DNA of 64,000 nucleotides from the human T2T-CHM13v2.0 reference genome, Homo sapiens: assembly GCF_009914755.1 (NCBI RefSeq), contig NC_060933.1. The stretch is one strand, 5' to 3'. This document shows positions 8,401-15,400 of this stretch, piece after piece. Numbering within the stretch: position 1 is the first letter of the stretch; every line of letters begins with the position of its first letter. Made by a program: the position numbers and the translations under genes. Under the pieces are notes generated by a model that saw nothing but the letters and a program-made list of their open reading frames with translations, made no database searches and was not told the origin of the DNA.

Positions 8401-11400
8401 AAGATCGCATCATTGCACTCCAGCCTGGGTGACAGAGCAAGACTCCAACTCAAAAAAAAAAAAAAAAAAAAAAAGAACGGAATAGACCAAGTGTTTGAAG
8501 ACACTGCTAAGAAGGAAAAATTCTGGCCACGTGTGGTGGCTCATGCCTGTGATCCCAGCACTCTGGGAGGTCAAGGCAGGAGGATCACTTGAGCCCAGGA
8601 GTTTGAGACCAGCCTGGGCAACATGGCAAAACCCTGCCTCTACTAAAAATACAAAAAATTAGCTGGTCATGTAATCCTAGATCCTCAGGTGGCTGAGGTG
8701 GGAGAATCACCTGAGCCTGGAAGGTTAAGGCTGCAGTGAGCCGAGATTGTGCCTCTACATATCAGCCTGGGCAACCAGAGTGAGACCCTGCCTCAAAAAA
8801 AAAAAAAAAAAAAAAGTAAAACTTATATTGAAAAAATTTTAAAAAAAGAAAAATGTGAAAAAGTAGAGTCTCCTCATCTGAAAAATAGAATAATGGTAGT
8901 TCCTTTCTCTTTGTATGTAACGCTATCCATTTAAAGAACTTAGAACTCAGTAAGTACTAAAGGACCGTTAATTCATTCAACAAGCATTATTTGATCTAGG
9001 CACTTAGAATACATCAATCAACTAAGCTGACAAAGATTCTTCCACTTGCGGAGCTCAATCTTAGTGGAGGGATGGAGGAAATAAACAGTGCAAAATAAAT
9101 AAGTGAAGGATAGAATATGCAGGAAGTTAAGTGCTATGGATGAAAGAAAAAGTACAACAGTGTAGCAGGGTCAGGAGTGCTGGGTGGTGGGTGGCAGTGC
9201 TGAATGGGTGATCAAGATGTCCTTTTTGGGTTTGTTTTTTTTTTTTTTTGAGATGGAGTCTCGCTCTGTCACCCAGACTGGAGTGCAGTGGTACGATCTT
9301 GGCTCACTGCAGCCTCCACCTCCTGGGTTCCAGCGATTCTCCTGCCTGTCTCCTGAGTAGCTAGGAGTAGCCTCCTGGGTAGCTGGGATTACAGGCATGT
9401 GCCACCACGCCTGGCTAATTTTTGTATTTTTAGTAGAGATGGGTTTTCACCATGTTGGCTAGGCTGGTCTCAAACTCCTGATCTCAGGTGATCCACCTGC
9501 CTCGGCCTCCCAAAGTGCTAGGATTACAGGCATGAGTCACAGCGCCCGGTCTTCTTTCATTCTTAAATTAAAAAGTGTACACATTTCAGGGCAGGAACGG
9601 TGGCTCATGCCTGTAATCCCAGCACTTTGGGAAGCCGAGGCAGGCGGATCGCTTGAGCTCAGGAGTTTGAGACAAGCCTGGTAACATGGCAAAAATCCTG
9701 TCTCTACTAAAAATACAAAAATTAGCCAGGCCTGGTGGTGCATGCCTGTAGTCCCAGATACTTGGGAAGCTGAGGTGGGAAGATTGCTTGAACCTGGGAG
9801 GTTGAGGCTGCAGTGAGCTGAGATGGTGACACTGCACTCCAGCCTGGGCAGACCTGTCCAGACCCTGTCTCACACACACATACACACTATATATATAGAG
9901 AGAGTATATTATAATAATATTATGTATTATATATTATATATGATGATGTGTTGAATTGCAACAGTGATTCTTGAAGGCATAAGTTAAATGCATAGGTTCT
10001 TTAATTATATAAATGCACAATATTAATTCATGTAAGTATCACGTCACATCAAAGGCTGATTTTTTCAAAATATGTCTTAGTTCCTTAATCACTCCCAACA
10101 TTCCAATAAAAAGCAAGCAGAAAATCCACTCTGCTTTTGATCATAAAGTGAAGACACAGAGAAAATTAAAGCCATAATACAAGTTAGAGACTGATGTTTT
10201 ATATCATGTGCCCCCACCATGCATTTGCACCAGTTTTTTGCTGACGATGAAATATGAAGCAAACAGGCACACACAGATAGTGAGTCAGCCCAAATTAATG
10301 TAAACTATCATGGTAATAACTACTTAAAATTCATTAGGAGACCACAAGAAGTACAGAGCGTGTTCAGAAACCCAACAGCCAGCCTCCAAAAATAAAGCGA
10401 AAGAGAAAATATACAGGTCATTTCTTCTCCAGAGAATCAAGGGAGATTAAAATATTTCAACTGGGCTGGGTACAGTGGCTCAAACCTGTAATTCCAGCAC
10501 TTTGGGAGGCCAAAGCAGGTGGATCACTTGAGGTCAGGGGTTCAAGACCAGCCTGGCCAACTTGGTGACATCCCATCTCTACTAAAAATACAAAAAATTA
10601 TCTGGGCATGGTGGCAGGCACCAGCTACTTGGGAGGCTGAGGCAGGAGAATCGCTTGAACCCGGGAGGCGGAGGTTGCAGTGAGGCACTGCACTCCAGCC
10701 TGGGCGACAGAGCAAGACTCTGTCTGAAAAAAAAAAAATAAGAAAATCAACTGAAGGTAGACTGTTAGAATTTGTCACCCTTCTGTAAAATTTTTACAAG
10801 TATTTGCATGCTAAGAAGACAACTTTCAGAGTTGGCTAACAACGGTTAATGAGCATCCGCCAGATACAAAGCCCTATTCCATGTCAGCTGGGGTTGGTAT
10901 TTAGAAATCCAAGGTAAGCAGGAGGAGAGTCTGTGGCCATAGCATAGTTCAGTATAACTACTAGCACTTGTCTGATGCAAGTAATGTAACTAAATGTAAA
11001 CAGTCATAAACAATAAGAATTTATTGGCTCATAAAAAGGCAAAATTATTGTCAATATAGAATCATTTTTCAAAATCAATGATAAGGCTGGGCACAGTGGT
11101 TCACGCCTGCAATCTCAGCACTTTGGGAGGCTGAGGCGGGTGAATCACGAGGTCAAGAGATCAAGACCATCCCGGGCCAACATGGTGAAACCCCCGTCTC
11201 TATTAAAAATACAAAATTTAGCTGGGCATGGTAGCGTGTGCCTGTATCTCAGCTACTTGGGAGGCTGAGGCAGGAAAATCGCTTGAACCAGAGAGACAGA
11301 GGTTGCAGTGAGCCGAGATCGTGCCACTGCACTCCAGCCTGGTGACAGAGCACGACTCTGTCTCAAAAAAAAAAAAAAAAAAAAAAAAAAAAAAAAAAAA

Positions 11401-12268
11401 TCAGTGATTACTGTCATTCTATGTCTATATTTTCCAGAGTCCACTGGAGTTTAAAACATCAAAATTTGACTCTATAATTTGCTATATTGTTACTATTATG
11501 AGCAATTGAGAAACTCATTTTTTACTAGTAATTAGTGTCTCTGAGGTGATTTCAAAGGTAATCATCTACATAATTGTCTTTAAAAGGATACAGCTATTGT
11601 GCAAATGTGGTTTATTATCAGAACTGAATGAATTATTTCATCTGGCAAAAAAATGTTAATTACAATTGAAATTTAAAGGTAATTCTACTTCAGGGACATA
11701 AATATAGTCATCTGGGTCATAATTTAGTAAATTGCCTAATTGGCTTACTTCAATAGCCAAGACTGTGAAATAATTGCAATATAACATCTGTTTCATACAG
11801 TGTTTTACTGCTTTAAAAATGCTTCTACTTTTTTGTTGTTGTTTTTGTTTTGTTTTTTGTTTTTTGAGATGAAGTCTTACTCTGTAGCCCAGGCTGGAGT
11901 GCAATGGCGTGATCTTGGTTTAATGCAACCTCTGCCTCCCGGGTTCAAGCGATTCTCCTTCCTTGGCCTCCCAAGTAGCTAGGATTACAGGTGTGCGCCA
12001 CTGCACCTGGCTAATTTTTCGTATTTTTAGTAAAGACAGGGTTTCACCATGTTGGTCAGGCTGGTCTTGAACTTCCAACCTCAGGTAATCCACCCACCCC
12101 AGCCTCCCAAAGTGCTAGGATTACAGGCGTGAACCACCGCGCCCAACCAAATGCTTCTACTTTTAAAAATCAATGTATTGATATTCATAACTCTTCAGGG
12201 AAGTCAACAGCACTGATGTAGAATCCTTATTTTTCAGGTGAAGAAACTTGAGACACAGCTCTATAGTA

Positions 12269-14399: not shown

Positions 14400-15400
14400 G
14401 CCGAAGGTCTTCAGAGCACCTCGGACCAGCGGAGGTTAAAGCTTATCTACAACAGCTTGCAGCAAGCTTGCTTTGGTAAACAGTCTGGGGCCAGGAGGTA
14501 CCCACAGTCCTAGTTACGCCAAATTCAGGCCGAAGGGCGACCTGTCTCCGTGCTCCTGACAAACTTCCAGCCCCCGTTTCCCATCAGAGCCTCGTCCAGG
14601 TGTTCCCATTTAAAGGCTCCACCTGCGCAGGGCGGGTGCCACACAATGAGGAGAGTTTTGCAAACAAACGCGGCCGTTGCTCCAAGGTCTCGGGTAACCG
14701 ATTGGCAAAACCTAGGTCTTCCCACTTAGGGAAGATGGCCCAAGAGCAAGAAGGCGAAACAAGAGGCCGCCGGACCCGCGAAGCCCCGAGCTCAGAGGTC
14801 GCCCAGTGCTCGGCCCCGCCTCTGACGTCACGGCTCGGTGGGACTCCCGGAGCCCGGATGCGCGCTGGGACTCGGTGCAGTCCAGCTCCACGGTCGCGCG
14901 TCCCACAGCTCCCTTCACGTCCGTTCCTCCGTTTCCCCACCTTGGGAGGGCCAGGACTTCCGAGGCTTTAGGGGGCAGGAAGCTGCGAGAAGGTGGCGCT
15001 TGCTTAGGTGAGGCGCGGAGGATGGTATTAGAGAGAGGAACGTGACTGGAAGCTCCCTGGCCATGGACGATCGCTGGGTTCTAGGCGCCTGCTCGCCCCA
15101 GCGGTTGACGGTCACGTGATACCCCCCAGTGTACCTTTCCTGCAGCGTGTTACGTGGCGCACAGAGAACGTCGCTTCCAGAGGACCGTTTTTTCGTAACT
15201 GGCAGTAGTAATCTGGCGGTTGACACTCTCGTTGCCTGTATAGGCTGATGGCCCACTCACCTTTTTAGCTGGGCTCCTGACCTGTCCGGCCAGAAAGTTG
15301 CCATTGGGGTAAGGTGGATGGCGTGGGGGAATAGGGAAGGGCCTCAGCACAGTTTCTGAACACTTCTTCCACACCGGATTCCGGAGGCCGCAGATAGGGA
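14400..15400. promoter_or_regulatory. Distal CpG island / probable bidirectional promoter
   Basis: CpG-rich non-repeat sequence. GC box, perfect CRE TGACGTCA (14823-14830), E-box GTCACGTGAT (15111-15120). Splice donors on both strands. Confidence 0.8.

What the first reader, a model, noticed from the sequence alone, without database searches (positions are those of the whole stretch)
11400..15120. Distal CpG island is an ancient paralogue of the KDM4C main promoter (partner about 54380-58485)
Seen: once Alus are skipped, non-repeat anchors recur in the same order and orientation. These are TCAAAATT.GACT; TGTCTCTGAGGTGAT (11536-11550 / 56122-56136); CCAAGACTGTGAA (11757-11769 / 56385-56397); two MIR-like remnants at equivalent positions; AAGGTCT..CACCTCGGA..GCGGAG(G)TTA (14404-14438 / 57644-57686); GGAGG.ACC..CA...CTAGT.AC; CGCCGGA...GCCCCGA; CTGACGTC (14822 / 58151); and GCCCCAGCGGT..GTCACGTGA (15095-15119 / 58464-58481). 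Similarity ends right after the E-box. Inference: an old tandem duplication (after the MIRs, before most Alus) copied the promoter about 43 kb upstream. Both copies kept CpG-island character, the CRE and the USF/TFEB/HIF-type E-box, which suggests selection on a twin promoter. I do not know of this being described.
Basis: partly seen in the sequence, partly recalled or inferred. Interest (0 to 1): 0.8.

Follow-up and report, generated by a model that had tools for sequence, protein, structure and literature searches.

The report
Three paralogous CpG-island promoters upstream of KDM4C
The CpG island about 43 kb upstream of the human KDM4C promoter is a very old, much-decayed copy of that promoter, and a third copy lies another 25 kb upstream, so KDM4C sits behind a small ancient array of duplicated promoter modules that all keep the same two binding-site motifs.

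Summary
With Alus removed, region A (11400-15320) and region B (56100-58800) share two collinear, same-strand blocks. Block 1 scores 59 (205/308 identical) and block 2 scores 31 (138/218). Shuffled controls reach 26 and 21, and real-sequence controls reach 20-28. Inside the CpG island, A-B similarity is weak but beats every real CpG-island control window (0 of 2500). It stops at the E-box just upstream of the KDM4C TSS.

A third copy, C, lies at window -10303..-9819 (L026:1697-2181). It matches the KDM4C promoter core at 199/294 identity, score 34 against 12-19 for controls. All three copies are CpG islands (o/e 0.79-0.84). All three carry TGACGTC and GGTCACGTGA in the same order.

The shared words are not over-represented genome-wide, and no dispersed copies were found. 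I therefore read this as an ancient local duplication, older than the Alus, not a repeat family.

Caveats: a B+C profile misses A's core. The MIR pair is no more alike than unrelated MIRs. Selection and promoter activity of A and C are inferred, not shown. No cross-species or Dfam check was possible.

The parts
11400..11594 (+). Left edge of copy A. It holds short collinear anchors at 11403-11418, 11459-11471 and 11530-11550, none individually significant.
   Evidence: local scores 16-17, reached by 10-12 of 300 shuffles. TGTCTCTGAGGTGAT occurs 7 times in the genome, two of them here and at 56122.
11595..12246 (+). Block 1 of copy A, interrupted by an unshared Alu at about 11834-12166.
   Evidence: score 59, 205/308 identical to 56216-56533, 0/300 shuffles. 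nhmmer E 1.9e-10.
12262..12524 (+). Mid-age dispersed repeat present only in copy A. It was inserted after the duplication and accounts for most of the spacing difference from B.
   Evidence: 632 first-look candidates genome-wide, of which 40 were scored at 71-78% identity. No counterpart in B.
13111..13298 (+). MIR-like SINE remnant in copy A, with a roughly 28-bp internal tandem duplication at its start. The name 'MIR' is recalled, not from a library.
   Evidence: in-session HMM, 107.7 bits, plus a second partial hit at 13111-13141.
14409..14636 (+). Block 2 of copy A, at the 5' edge of the CpG island.
   Evidence: score 31, 138/218 identical to 57660-57878, 0/300 and 0/200 shuffles. nhmmer E 4.3e-9. 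Its gapped motif occurs only twice in the genome.
14700..15119 (+). Promoter-like core of copy A. Ordered motifs: m1 at 14722, TGACGTC at 14823, m4 at 14916, m5 at 14932, m6 at 14976, GGTCACGTGA at 15110-15119.
   Evidence: Global alignment to B is -25.5 against a maximum of -36 in 2500 real CpG-island windows; to C it is -11 against a maximum of -22 in 2644. A and C are reciprocal best non-self nhmmer hits. Against.
14501..15340 (+). CpG island of copy A: 840 bp, GC 0.61, 61 CpG, o/e 0.79. The hub's table lists a RefSeq enhancer at 14985-15204 and the exon-1 donor of LOC124902117 at 15308.
   Evidence: Annotation comes from the hub's table.
56216..56533 (+). Block 1 of copy B.
56682..56842 (+). 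MIR-like SINE remnant in copy B, 149 bp after the end of block 1.
   Evidence: 99.4 bits.
57660..57878 (+). Block 2 of copy B, 630-850 bp upstream of the KDM4C TSS.
58004..58481 (+). Core of the KDM4C main promoter (copy B). Ordered motifs: m1 at 58004, TGACGTC at 58152, m4 at 58276, m5 at 58305, m6 at 58347, GGTCACGTGA at 58472-58481.
   Evidence: 58004-58326 matches copy C at 199/294 identity, score 34, nhmmer 36 bits.
58506..58736 (+). KDM4C exon 1 (non-coding). It lies outside the detectable homology.
   Evidence: Hub's gene table; no similarity downstream of the E-box.
57801..59660 (+). CpG island of copy B: 1860 bp, GC 0.65, 165 CpG, o/e 0.84.

Best explanation
The GLDC-KDM4C intergenic region holds three same-orientation, very old paralogues of one CpG-island promoter module:
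- C, at window -10303..-9819 (chr9:6,685,697-6,686,181 of T2T-CHM13; L026:1697-2181).
- A, at 14409-15119.
- B, at 57660-58481, the main KDM4C promoter.

They arose by local duplication. It was probably tandem or unequal-exchange duplication of a few kb. The copies were later pushed apart by Alus, processed pseudogenes and other insertions. The A-B event carried at least 2.3 kb of upstream sequence, including a MIR-like SINE. It predates every Alu in the region and predates a mid-age dispersed repeat at 12262-12524.

Each copy is still a CpG island. Each keeps the same ordered motifs and ends at a GTCACGTGA(C/T) E-box about 25-35 bp before the position of the KDM4C TSS, with a TGACGTC CRE-type site about 290-340 bp upstream of it. 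Homology is undetectable beyond the TSS position.

Inferred, not shown: A and C are promoter-type elements that read the same factors as the KDM4C promoter. These would be CREB/ATF-type factors at the CRE and USF/MYC-MAX/TFE-type bHLH-ZIP factors at the E-box. A would drive the spliced lncRNA LOC124902117 and possibly upstream KDM4C 5' exons. C would be an orphan CpG island.
For: Shown by computation:
- A-B block 1 scores 59 and block 2 scores 31, collinear and on the same strand. Shuffles give 0/300 each. Real-sequence controls give 0 of 116 at or above 31.
- nhmmer finds each block's partner reciprocally (E 1.9e-10 / 4.6e-7 and 4.3e-9 / 8.7e-8) and nothing else in 264 kb.
- The MIR-like element sits 148-176 bp (A, after removing unshared inserts) against 149 bp (B) from the end of block 1.
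- B-C core: score 34, 199/294 identical, against 12-19 for the control regions scanned on both strands. nhmmer gives 35.8 and 36.5 bits. Global alignment is +30 against a maximum of -17 in 2644 windows.
- A core vs B and vs C beats all 2500 and 2644 real CpG-island windows.
- A and C are each other's best non-self nhmmer hit (for C, best after B) in 308 kb, on the diagonal that B predicts.
- Six motifs occur once per copy in the same order.
- The 10-nt E-box is the only 3-way identical run of 5 or more columns.
- CpG o/e is 0.79, 0.84 and 0.82.

Evidence that this is not a dispersed family:
- The motif-pair pattern has 6 genome hits (reversed control 0). Three are A, B and C. The other three align only at noise level, 11-19.
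- Genome-wide word counts are 160 vs 116 (control), 2 vs 0, and 7 vs 4.
- The whole-genome DNA search returns 632 candidates for the repeat at 12262-12524, but only self for block 1A, block 2A, block 1B, the B core and 13311-13760.
Against: - A profile built from B+C does not find A's core at E<=10.
- Words conserved between B and C chain in A only marginally better than in control islands: 32 against a mean of 20.5, with 34 of 590 controls at or above.
- Local alignment of the A core to B (16) and to C (18) is at noise level.
- The sliding control windows overlap, and the A-B and A-C endpoints were chosen with knowledge of the anchors.
- The six motifs were picked after seeing the alignment.
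- The MIR pair is 57% identical, like unrelated MIRs.
- About 450-520 bp between the MIR and block 2 shows no similarity. C lacks blocks 1 and 2 and the MIR. The three copies therefore do not give a simple tree.
- No repeat library (Dfam/RepeatMasker) was available, so a rare old repeat family cannot be formally excluded. The whole-genome DNA search misses relatives below about 70% identity: it misses C from B, and it misses MIRs.
- No transcription, chromatin or binding data were examined.
- No JmjN-like pseudo-exon lies near A or C, so there is no sign that coding exons were duplicated.
Confidence: 0.78

Rival explanations
1. The paralogy is real, but A and C are neutral, decaying relics. 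They stay CpG-rich passively and keep the CRE and E-box by chance or because of shared mutational context. They have no selected promoter function and no regulatory link to KDM4C.
For: A's core is far more diverged than its flanks, and a B+C profile misses it. Nothing is conserved downstream of the TSS position. The hub's RefSeq table shows no gene at C and only a predicted lncRNA at A. No functional data were examined here.
Against: All three copies keep CpG o/e of 0.79-0.84, although the duplication predates all the local Alus. The 10-nt GGTCACGTGA is identical in all three, while only 124 of 395 ungapped columns are 3-way identical. My estimate for such a run is P of about 0.003, and it is post hoc. 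TGACGTC is also kept in all three, in order. The hub's table lists a RefSeq enhancer over A's E-box and a spliced transcript that uses a donor 189 bp after it.
Confidence: 0.3
2. The blocks are independent insertions of the same old interspersed repeat, or of a composite of repeats, next to unrelated CpG islands. There was no local duplication.
For: No repeat library could be consulted. MIR-age families are invisible to the whole-genome DNA search. The MIR pair is no closer than unrelated MIRs. The middle of the region is unalignable.
Against: Three or more separate pieces (block 1, MIR, block 2, core) recur in the same order, strand and spacing. Neither block has any other relative in 264-308 kb. 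The shared 13- and 15-mers and the block-2 motif are not enriched genome-wide. A-B block identity of 63-67% lets the single sequences find each other at E of about 1e-9, whereas the two MIR copies do not find each other at all. All three copies lie within 69 kb, and the pattern search finds no true copy elsewhere.
Confidence: 0.07
3. The similarity inside the CpG islands is convergence. Unrelated GC-rich promoters share common motifs (CRE, E-box, GC-rich words), and only the AT-rich upstream blocks are truly homologous.
For: CRE and CACGTG are common promoter motifs. A-B and A-C local scores in the core are at noise level. The word-chain test gives P of about 0.06.
Against: B-C core similarity is far above all the real CpG-island control regions tested. 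The A-C reciprocal top hits fall on the predicted diagonal. Block 2 abuts the core in A and B. The three chance genome hits carrying the same motif pair show no further similarity.
Confidence: 0.05

Closest known systems
Alternative or duplicated promoters created by tandem or segmental duplication, as in the regulatory-element families of Weaver & Lowe (bioRxiv 10.64898/2025.12.03.692127; abstract, outline and searched passages read).
   Same: Copies of a promoter element lie in the same orientation near one gene. They share binding-site content through common descent rather than through a transposon.
   Different: The cases in that preprint are recent, high-identity segmental duplications found by self-alignment of the T2T genome. 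Here the copies are only about 50-68% identical, predate the Alus, and would fall below such pipelines. Promoter activity of A and C is not shown here.
Clusters of variable first exons, each with its own promoter, as in the protocadherin and UGT1A type. This is recalled from general knowledge; search returned only a protocadherin paper listing.
   Same: A tandem array of homologous promoter units lies upstream of shared downstream exons. KDM4C exon 1 is non-coding, so alternative first exons would leave the protein unchanged.
   Different: There is no evidence here that exons starting at A or C splice to KDM4C exon 2. The homology covers the promoter only, not the first exon. There are only three units, and they are very diverged.
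Orphan CpG islands: intergenic CpG islands with promoter-like chromatin (recalled concept).
   Same: C, and partly A, are CpG islands with no RefSeq protein-coding TSS.
   Different: Here the orphan islands are demonstrably paralogues of a neighbouring gene's promoter. That is not part of the definition of an orphan island.
Families of conserved non-coding elements spread by ancient transposons (mentioned in the introduction of the same preprint).
   Same: Several non-coding elements have alignable sequence and shared motifs.
   Different: There is no dispersed family. All copies are local, and the shared words are not enriched genome-wide.

Membership tests
Local (tandem or segmental) duplication-derived paralogous promoters | Statistically significant sequence homology between copies, beyond composition and shared repeats | tested here: met
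   A-B blocks score 59 and 31, against shuffle maxima of 26 and 21 and real-sequence maxima of 20-28. B-C scores 34 against 12-19. nhmmer E-values are 1e-7 to 1e-10.
Local (tandem or segmental) duplication-derived paralogous promoters | Same orientation, collinear order of several independent pieces, clustered at one locus | tested here: met
   All pieces are +/+. The order is block 1, MIR, block 2, then six motifs. The three copies lie within 69 kb.
Local (tandem or segmental) duplication-derived paralogous promoters | Copies are not members of a genome-wide dispersed family | tested here: met
   The limit is that relatives below about 70% identity are invisible to the whole-genome DNA search, and no Dfam library was available.
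Local (tandem or segmental) duplication-derived paralogous promoters | Each copy acts as a promoter (TSS, open or unmethylated chromatin) | not testable with these tools
   Only indirect evidence exists: CpG o/e of 0.79-0.84, and the hub's RefSeq rows (lncRNA exon ending at 15308; enhancer at 14985-15204).
Variable-first-exon cluster | First exons from each unit splice to a common second exon | not testable with these tools
   No transcript data were available. The hub's table shows a KDM4C alternative first exon at 19554-19688, and a lncRNA from A that ends at 19155.
Variable-first-exon cluster | Homology includes the first exon | tested here: not met
   There is no similarity downstream of the E-box in any pair.
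Interspersed repeat (transposable element) copies | Many dispersed copies; consensus words over-represented in the genome | tested here: not met
   Word counts are 160 vs 116, 2 vs 0 and 7 vs 4. The DNA searches returned only self, while the positive control repeat gave 632 candidates.
CpG island | At least 400 bp with GC >= 0.55 and CpG o/e >= 0.65 (the criteria used in my scan) | tested here: met
   A is 840 bp with GC 0.61 and o/e 0.79. B is 1860 bp with 0.65 and 0.84. C is 1340 bp with 0.61 and 0.82; its last roughly 270 bp are Alu.
MIR SINE (name recalled) | Match to a MIR profile | tested here: inconclusive
   A profile built here from 7 copies in 264 kb matches 13139-13298 and 56682-56842. 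No curated MIR model was available. A suspected second, reverse-strand MIR inside block 1 was not supported (best E 1.4).

The most novel reading that the evidence does not exclude
KDM4C lies behind an array of three paralogous CpG-island promoters that is at least about 100 million years old. Purifying selection has kept them for one shared input logic, a CRE plus a GTCACGTGAC-type E-box. They would act as coordinated alternative or 'shadow' promoters, or promoter-derived enhancers, for KDM4C and its upstream lncRNA. Comparing the paralogues would then footprint the essential regulatory code of this oncogene-linked demethylase gene.
Probability: 0.25. Interest if true: 0.55.

Novelty: new member of a known kind. 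Interest (0 to 1): 0.4.

Why it matters
Promoter duplication is a known route to alternative promoters. Nearly all documented cases are recent and highly similar. This is a deeply diverged triplet that ordinary self-alignment and segmental-duplication catalogues would miss.

If A and C are active, they are candidate alternative promoters or promoter-derived enhancers for KDM4C, a gene in the 9p24 amplicon (recalled). The motifs that survive in all three copies, TGACGTC and GGTCACGTGA, point directly to the factors worth testing at the main promoter. If they are inactive relics, the locus is still a useful natural example of how long CpG-island character and single binding sites can outlast alignable sequence.

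Tried and rejected
- Whole-genome DNA search (own assembly) with block 2A, MIR(+)A, block 1A, B core, block 1B and 13311-13760 returned only self. It also missed MIRs and missed C when queried with B. It is therefore uninformative below about 70% identity, and useful only against mid-age families (positive control).
- I suspected a second, reverse-strand MIR inside block 1, from memory of the consensus. The in-session MIR profile did not support it (best E 1.4 in B, nothing in A), so I dropped it.
- I looked for extended duplication units by comparing the sequence after C, after A and after B. No collinear hits appeared. The one B-C hit (-2076 / 60662) lies in a segment that also matches -94075..-93631 on the other strand, so it is a dispersed repeat.
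- I looked for blocks 1 and 2 and the MIR upstream of C. None were found.
- A Pfam JmjN search of the genome, for pseudo-exons near A or C, found only the real KDM4C exon at chr9:6,789,568-6,789,669.
- Rfam found only Alu/SRP-type matches elsewhere in the window and nothing in A, B or C.
- I considered a covariance or profile model for a genome-wide search and dropped it. The best 190-nt sub-window gives only about 23 bits between B and C, too little for a 6-Gb search space.
The real CpG-island control panel is therefore small, built from eight regions.
- Four literature searches and passages of three papers gave nothing on a distal KDM4C CpG island or its paralogy.

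
Full report
**What was checked**

I read both regions. I confirmed by regular expression that all 11 anchor patterns are at the stated coordinates, in the same order. On the + strand of the window, 9 of the 11 occur exactly twice.

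**Is it more than chance?**

A raw blastn of A against B gives 108 HSPs. They are dominated by Alus in both orientations. Two non-Alu +/+ HSPs stand out. I masked Alus with three in-window Alu seeds, which gave 88 intervals and 30,134 bases, 47% of the window.

Alu-stripped A' (2496 bp) against B' (2408 bp), scored by Smith-Waterman (+1/-1/-3/-1), gives:
- Block 1: score 59. It spans 11595-12246, running across an unshared Alu at about 11834-12166, against 56216-56533. Identity is 205/308.
- Block 2: score 31. It spans 14409-14636 against 57660-57878. Identity is 138/218.
- The next local alignments score 17 or less.

Controls:
- Reverse complement 15 and reversed 16.
- Block-wise dinucleotide-preserving shuffles: 0 of 300 reach the observed score for either block. 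Null means are 14.8 and 14.1, and maxima are 26 and 21.
- Against 58 real Alu-stripped 2.4-kb segments from 264 kb of chr9, on both strands (116 comparisons each), the maximum is 20 for A' and 28 for B'.
- Single-sequence nhmmer finds each block's partner reciprocally (1.9e-10 / 4.6e-7 and 4.3e-9 / 8.7e-8) and nothing else in 264 kb.
- In Alu-masked self-blastn, block 1 is one of only 3 off-diagonal pairs in the window. In the 264-kb region, among 113 off-diagonal hits, it is the only hit touching A or B.

**Between and beyond the blocks**

A MIR-like SINE remnant lies at 13111/13139-13298 in A and 56682-56842 in B. It was found with a profile I built here from 7 copies. The name 'MIR' is from memory. 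I removed the inserts that only A has:
- the dispersed repeat at 12262-12524;
- the Alu at 12526-12840;
- a partial Alu at about 12945-13082.

After that, the MIR starts 148-176 bp after the end of block 1 in A, against 149 bp in B. The distance from the MIR to block 2 is about 472 bp against 528 bp. This is my arithmetic on coordinates.

A global alignment of the MIR-containing interval beats shuffles (z 4.2, 0/200). However, the two MIRs are only 88/155 = 57% identical. That is within the 47-64% seen for unrelated MIR pairs.

The 450-520 bp between the MIR and block 2 shows no similarity (score 11, with 247/300 shuffles at or above; z 0.5). The A side of it is not a mid-age repeat. This heterogeneity is unexplained.

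The left-edge anchors (11403-11418, 11459, 11530-11550) are collinear but not individually significant (10-12 of 300). Even so, TGTCTCTGAGGTGAT has only 7 occurrences in the whole genome, against 4 for the reversed control. Two of them are these sites.

**Inside the CpG island**

Local alignment of the A and B cores is at noise level (16). A global alignment from the end of block 2 to the E-box (14637-15120 vs 57879-58485) gives 305/458 identity with 175 gap columns. It beats shuffles (z 5.0, 0/200). Without the E-box anchor it is z 4.0, 0/200. The two halves separately give 4/200 and 5/200. With free right ends it gives 5/200.

Against real CpG islands I used eight regions, on both strands, in sliding windows. 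The regions were:
- the GLDC promoter;
- three regions of chr19 sequence containing CpG islands;
- the island sequence downstream of B;
- three loci from the pattern search.

A-B is -25.5, against a control mean of -68.4 and a maximum of -36.0 (0 of 2500). These windows overlap, and the endpoints were chosen knowing the anchors. I take this as moderate support, not strong support.

Downstream of the E-box no pair shows similarity. The E-box ends 25 bp before the RefSeq KDM4C TSS (58481 vs 58506, from the hub's table).

**A third copy**

While using other CpG islands as controls, I found that the island at window -10359..-9020 matches B. It lies outside the window and was fetched. Its last roughly 270 bp are Alu.
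- B 58004-58326 against C -10303..-9997 scores 34 with 199/294 identity. All other control comparisons score 12-19.
- nhmmer gives 35.8 and 36.5 bits, E 4.2e-10 and 2.5e-10.
- Global alignment gives +30, against a maximum of -17 in 2644 control windows.
- C has no counterpart of block 1, block 2 or the MIR.

For A against C:
- Local score is 18 (14970-15049 vs -9978..-9900).
- Global score is -11, against a maximum of -22 in 2644 windows.
- In 308 kb searched on both strands, A's best non-self nhmmer hit is C (-10044..-9901, E 0.2). C's best hit after B is A (14908-15049, E 1.3). Both are on the diagonal predicted through B.

Evidence against a detectable A core:
- A B+C profile does not detect A at E<=10.
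- Ten words conserved between B and C chain in A with weight 32, against a control mean of 20.5. 34 of 590 controls are at or above.

Adding A to B raises the profile score on C from 35.8 to 40.5 bits. Adding A to C lowers the score on B from 36.5 to 23.9 bits.

Three-way alignments give identities of 0.47-0.49 for A-B, 0.49-0.51 for A-C and 0.55-0.56 for B-C. A's core is therefore the most diverged. The data give no clean tree: A and B share flanks, while B and C share the best core.

**Shared architecture**

Six motifs occur once per copy and in the same order. They were chosen after seeing the alignment.

| Motif | A | B | C |
|---|---|---|---|
| CCAYTNNGGGARG | 14722 | 58004 | -10303 |
| TGACGTC | 14823 | 58152 | -10169 |
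| CAC(C/G)T..GTT | 14916 | 58276 | -10047 |
| TTTCCCYNC | 14932 | 58305 | -10018 |
| CARGAAGNNGC | 14976 | 58347 | -9972 |
| GGTCACGTGA | 15110 | 58472 | -9828 |

The E-box 10-mer is the only run of 5 or more columns identical in all three copies, in an alignment where 124 of 395 ungapped columns are 3-way identical. My rough estimate for such a run is P of about 0.003, and it is post hoc.

B and C read GTCACGTGAC, and A reads GTCACGTGAT. From memory, this is the palindromic E-box bound by USF, MYC/MAX and the MITF/TFE family (the 'CLEAR' consensus). Also from memory, TGACGTC(A) is the CRE/ATF site. No binding data were examined.

All three copies are CpG islands: o/e 0.79, 0.84 and 0.82, and GC 0.61-0.65.

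**Repeat family or local duplication?**

No Dfam or RepeatMasker library was available, so I used indirect tests.

1. Word counts. A consensus word of an abundant family should be over-represented in the genome.
   - CCAAGACTGTGAA occurs 160 times, against 116 for its reversed control.
   - The block-2 gapped motif occurs 2 times against 0, at A and B only.
   - TGTCTCTGAGGTGAT occurs 7 times against 4.

2. Whole-genome DNA search. It returns 632 first-look candidates (40 scored, 71-78% identity) for the A-only insert 12255-12525, so it does detect mid-age families. It returns only self for block 1A, block 2A, block 1B, the B core and 13311-13760. It also returns only self for the MIR, and it misses C from B. 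It is therefore blind below about 70% identity.

3. Pattern search. CARGAAGNNGC-N{110,138}-GGTCACGTGA has 6 genome hits, with 0 for the reversed control. Three are A, B and C. The others are on chr1, chr10 and chr11. They align to A, B and C only at noise level, 11-19.

4. Profiles from pairs of copies find only the three copies in 308 kb.

I also looked for larger duplication units and for duplicated coding sequence. Nothing collinear was found in the sequence following C, A and B. No JmjN-like pseudo-exon lies near A or C; the real KDM4C exon is at chr9:6,789,568-6,789,669. Rfam has nothing in A, B or C.

**Interpretation**

The best reading is an ancient local duplication of a promoter module, now present in three direct copies spread over 69 kb.

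Timing:
- No Alu is shared, and one Alu splits block 1. A mid-age dispersed repeat is present only in A. The A-B event therefore predates these insertions.
- The MIR-like element at matching distance suggests the event followed that SINE's insertion. This rests on position only.
- Block identities of 63-67% correspond to roughly 0.44-0.5 substitutions per site between copies (my Jukes-Cantor arithmetic). With recalled mammalian neutral rates, this is of the order of 100 million years or more, if the sequence is neutral. This is inference, not measurement. It needs cross-species data that these tools do not hold.

Function is inferred. Three observations suggest that A and C are still promoter-type elements sharing inputs with KDM4C:
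- persistence of CpG-island character in all three copies;
- the invariant E-box and the retained CRE;
- the hub's RefSeq rows, namely an enhancer at 14985-15204 over A's E-box and a spliced lncRNA whose first exon ends at a GGG|GTAAGG donor at 15308, 189 bp after the E-box, compared with 255 bp in KDM4C.

The main rival at this level is that they are neutral relics.

**Literature**

Four full-text searches and passages of two KDM4C-mentioning papers found nothing on a distal KDM4C CpG island or its paralogy. The two papers were PMC5480877, on a rod-specific TSS in mouse, and 10.1101/2022.04.21.488764, on the oocyte H3K4me3 domain.

A 2025 preprint (10.64898/2025.12.03.692127; abstract, outline and passages read) shows that segmental and tandem duplications create families of regulatory elements and alternative promoters in the T2T genome. 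The kind of event is therefore known. KDM4C is not in its main text, and its supplements could not be opened.

**Verdict**

This is a new member of a known kind, and of moderate interest.

Noticed in passing
L026:1641-2709 (window -10359..-9291; chr9:6,685,641-6,686,709): An orphan CpG island (copy C), with no RefSeq gene in the hub's list of neighbours. It is the third paralogue of the KDM4C promoter core.
   Followed up: yes
window 12262-12524: A mid-age dispersed repeat present only in copy A: 632 first-look candidates genome-wide, 71-78% identity. From memory it looks like a Tigger/MER-type DNA transposon end. No library check was made.
   Followed up: partly
window 11816-11833 and 12150-12166: The Alu that splits block 1 is flanked by a direct repeat, AAATGCTTCTACTTTT. 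This looks like its target-site duplication, and it confirms a post-duplication insertion (seen).
   Followed up: no
window 13111-13170: A roughly 28-bp internal tandem duplication at the start of the MIR-like element in copy A. The HMM start is matched twice.
   Followed up: partly
window 43332-43413 vs 45670-45589: An inverted non-Alu repeat pair, 82 bp at 89% identity. It is the strongest non-Alu self-match in the window.
   Followed up: no
window 28248-28588 vs window -2543..-2203 (in L011): A 341-bp inverted match at 94% identity, next to the RBMX-like pseudogene region. It is probably a young interspersed repeat.
   Followed up: no
outside the window: window coordinates 67064-67333 vs 68633-68905 (L012): A direct repeat pair, 273 bp at 97% identity and 1.6 kb apart, in KDM4C intron 1. 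It could be an LTR pair or a recent local duplication.
   Followed up: no
outside the window: -68.3..-67.3 kb, 98.8-99.6 kb and 107.8-109.3 kb (L005, L015, L016): GC-rich internally repetitive elements, with VNTR-like self-matches at 70-88% identity between the three sites. They were flagged as CpG islands by my scan and are probably SVA-type composites.
   Followed up: no
window 13311-13760 vs 56851-56965 + 57256-57659: The stretch between the MIR and block 2 has matching length (about 472 vs 528 bp) but no detectable similarity, unlike its flanks. Its A side is unique in the genome search.
   Followed up: partly
chr9:6,789,568-6,789,669 (window 93568-93669, L015): The JmjN-coding exon of KDM4C lies about 35 kb downstream of exon 1. 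It is the only JmjN match on this stretch of chr9.
   Followed up: no
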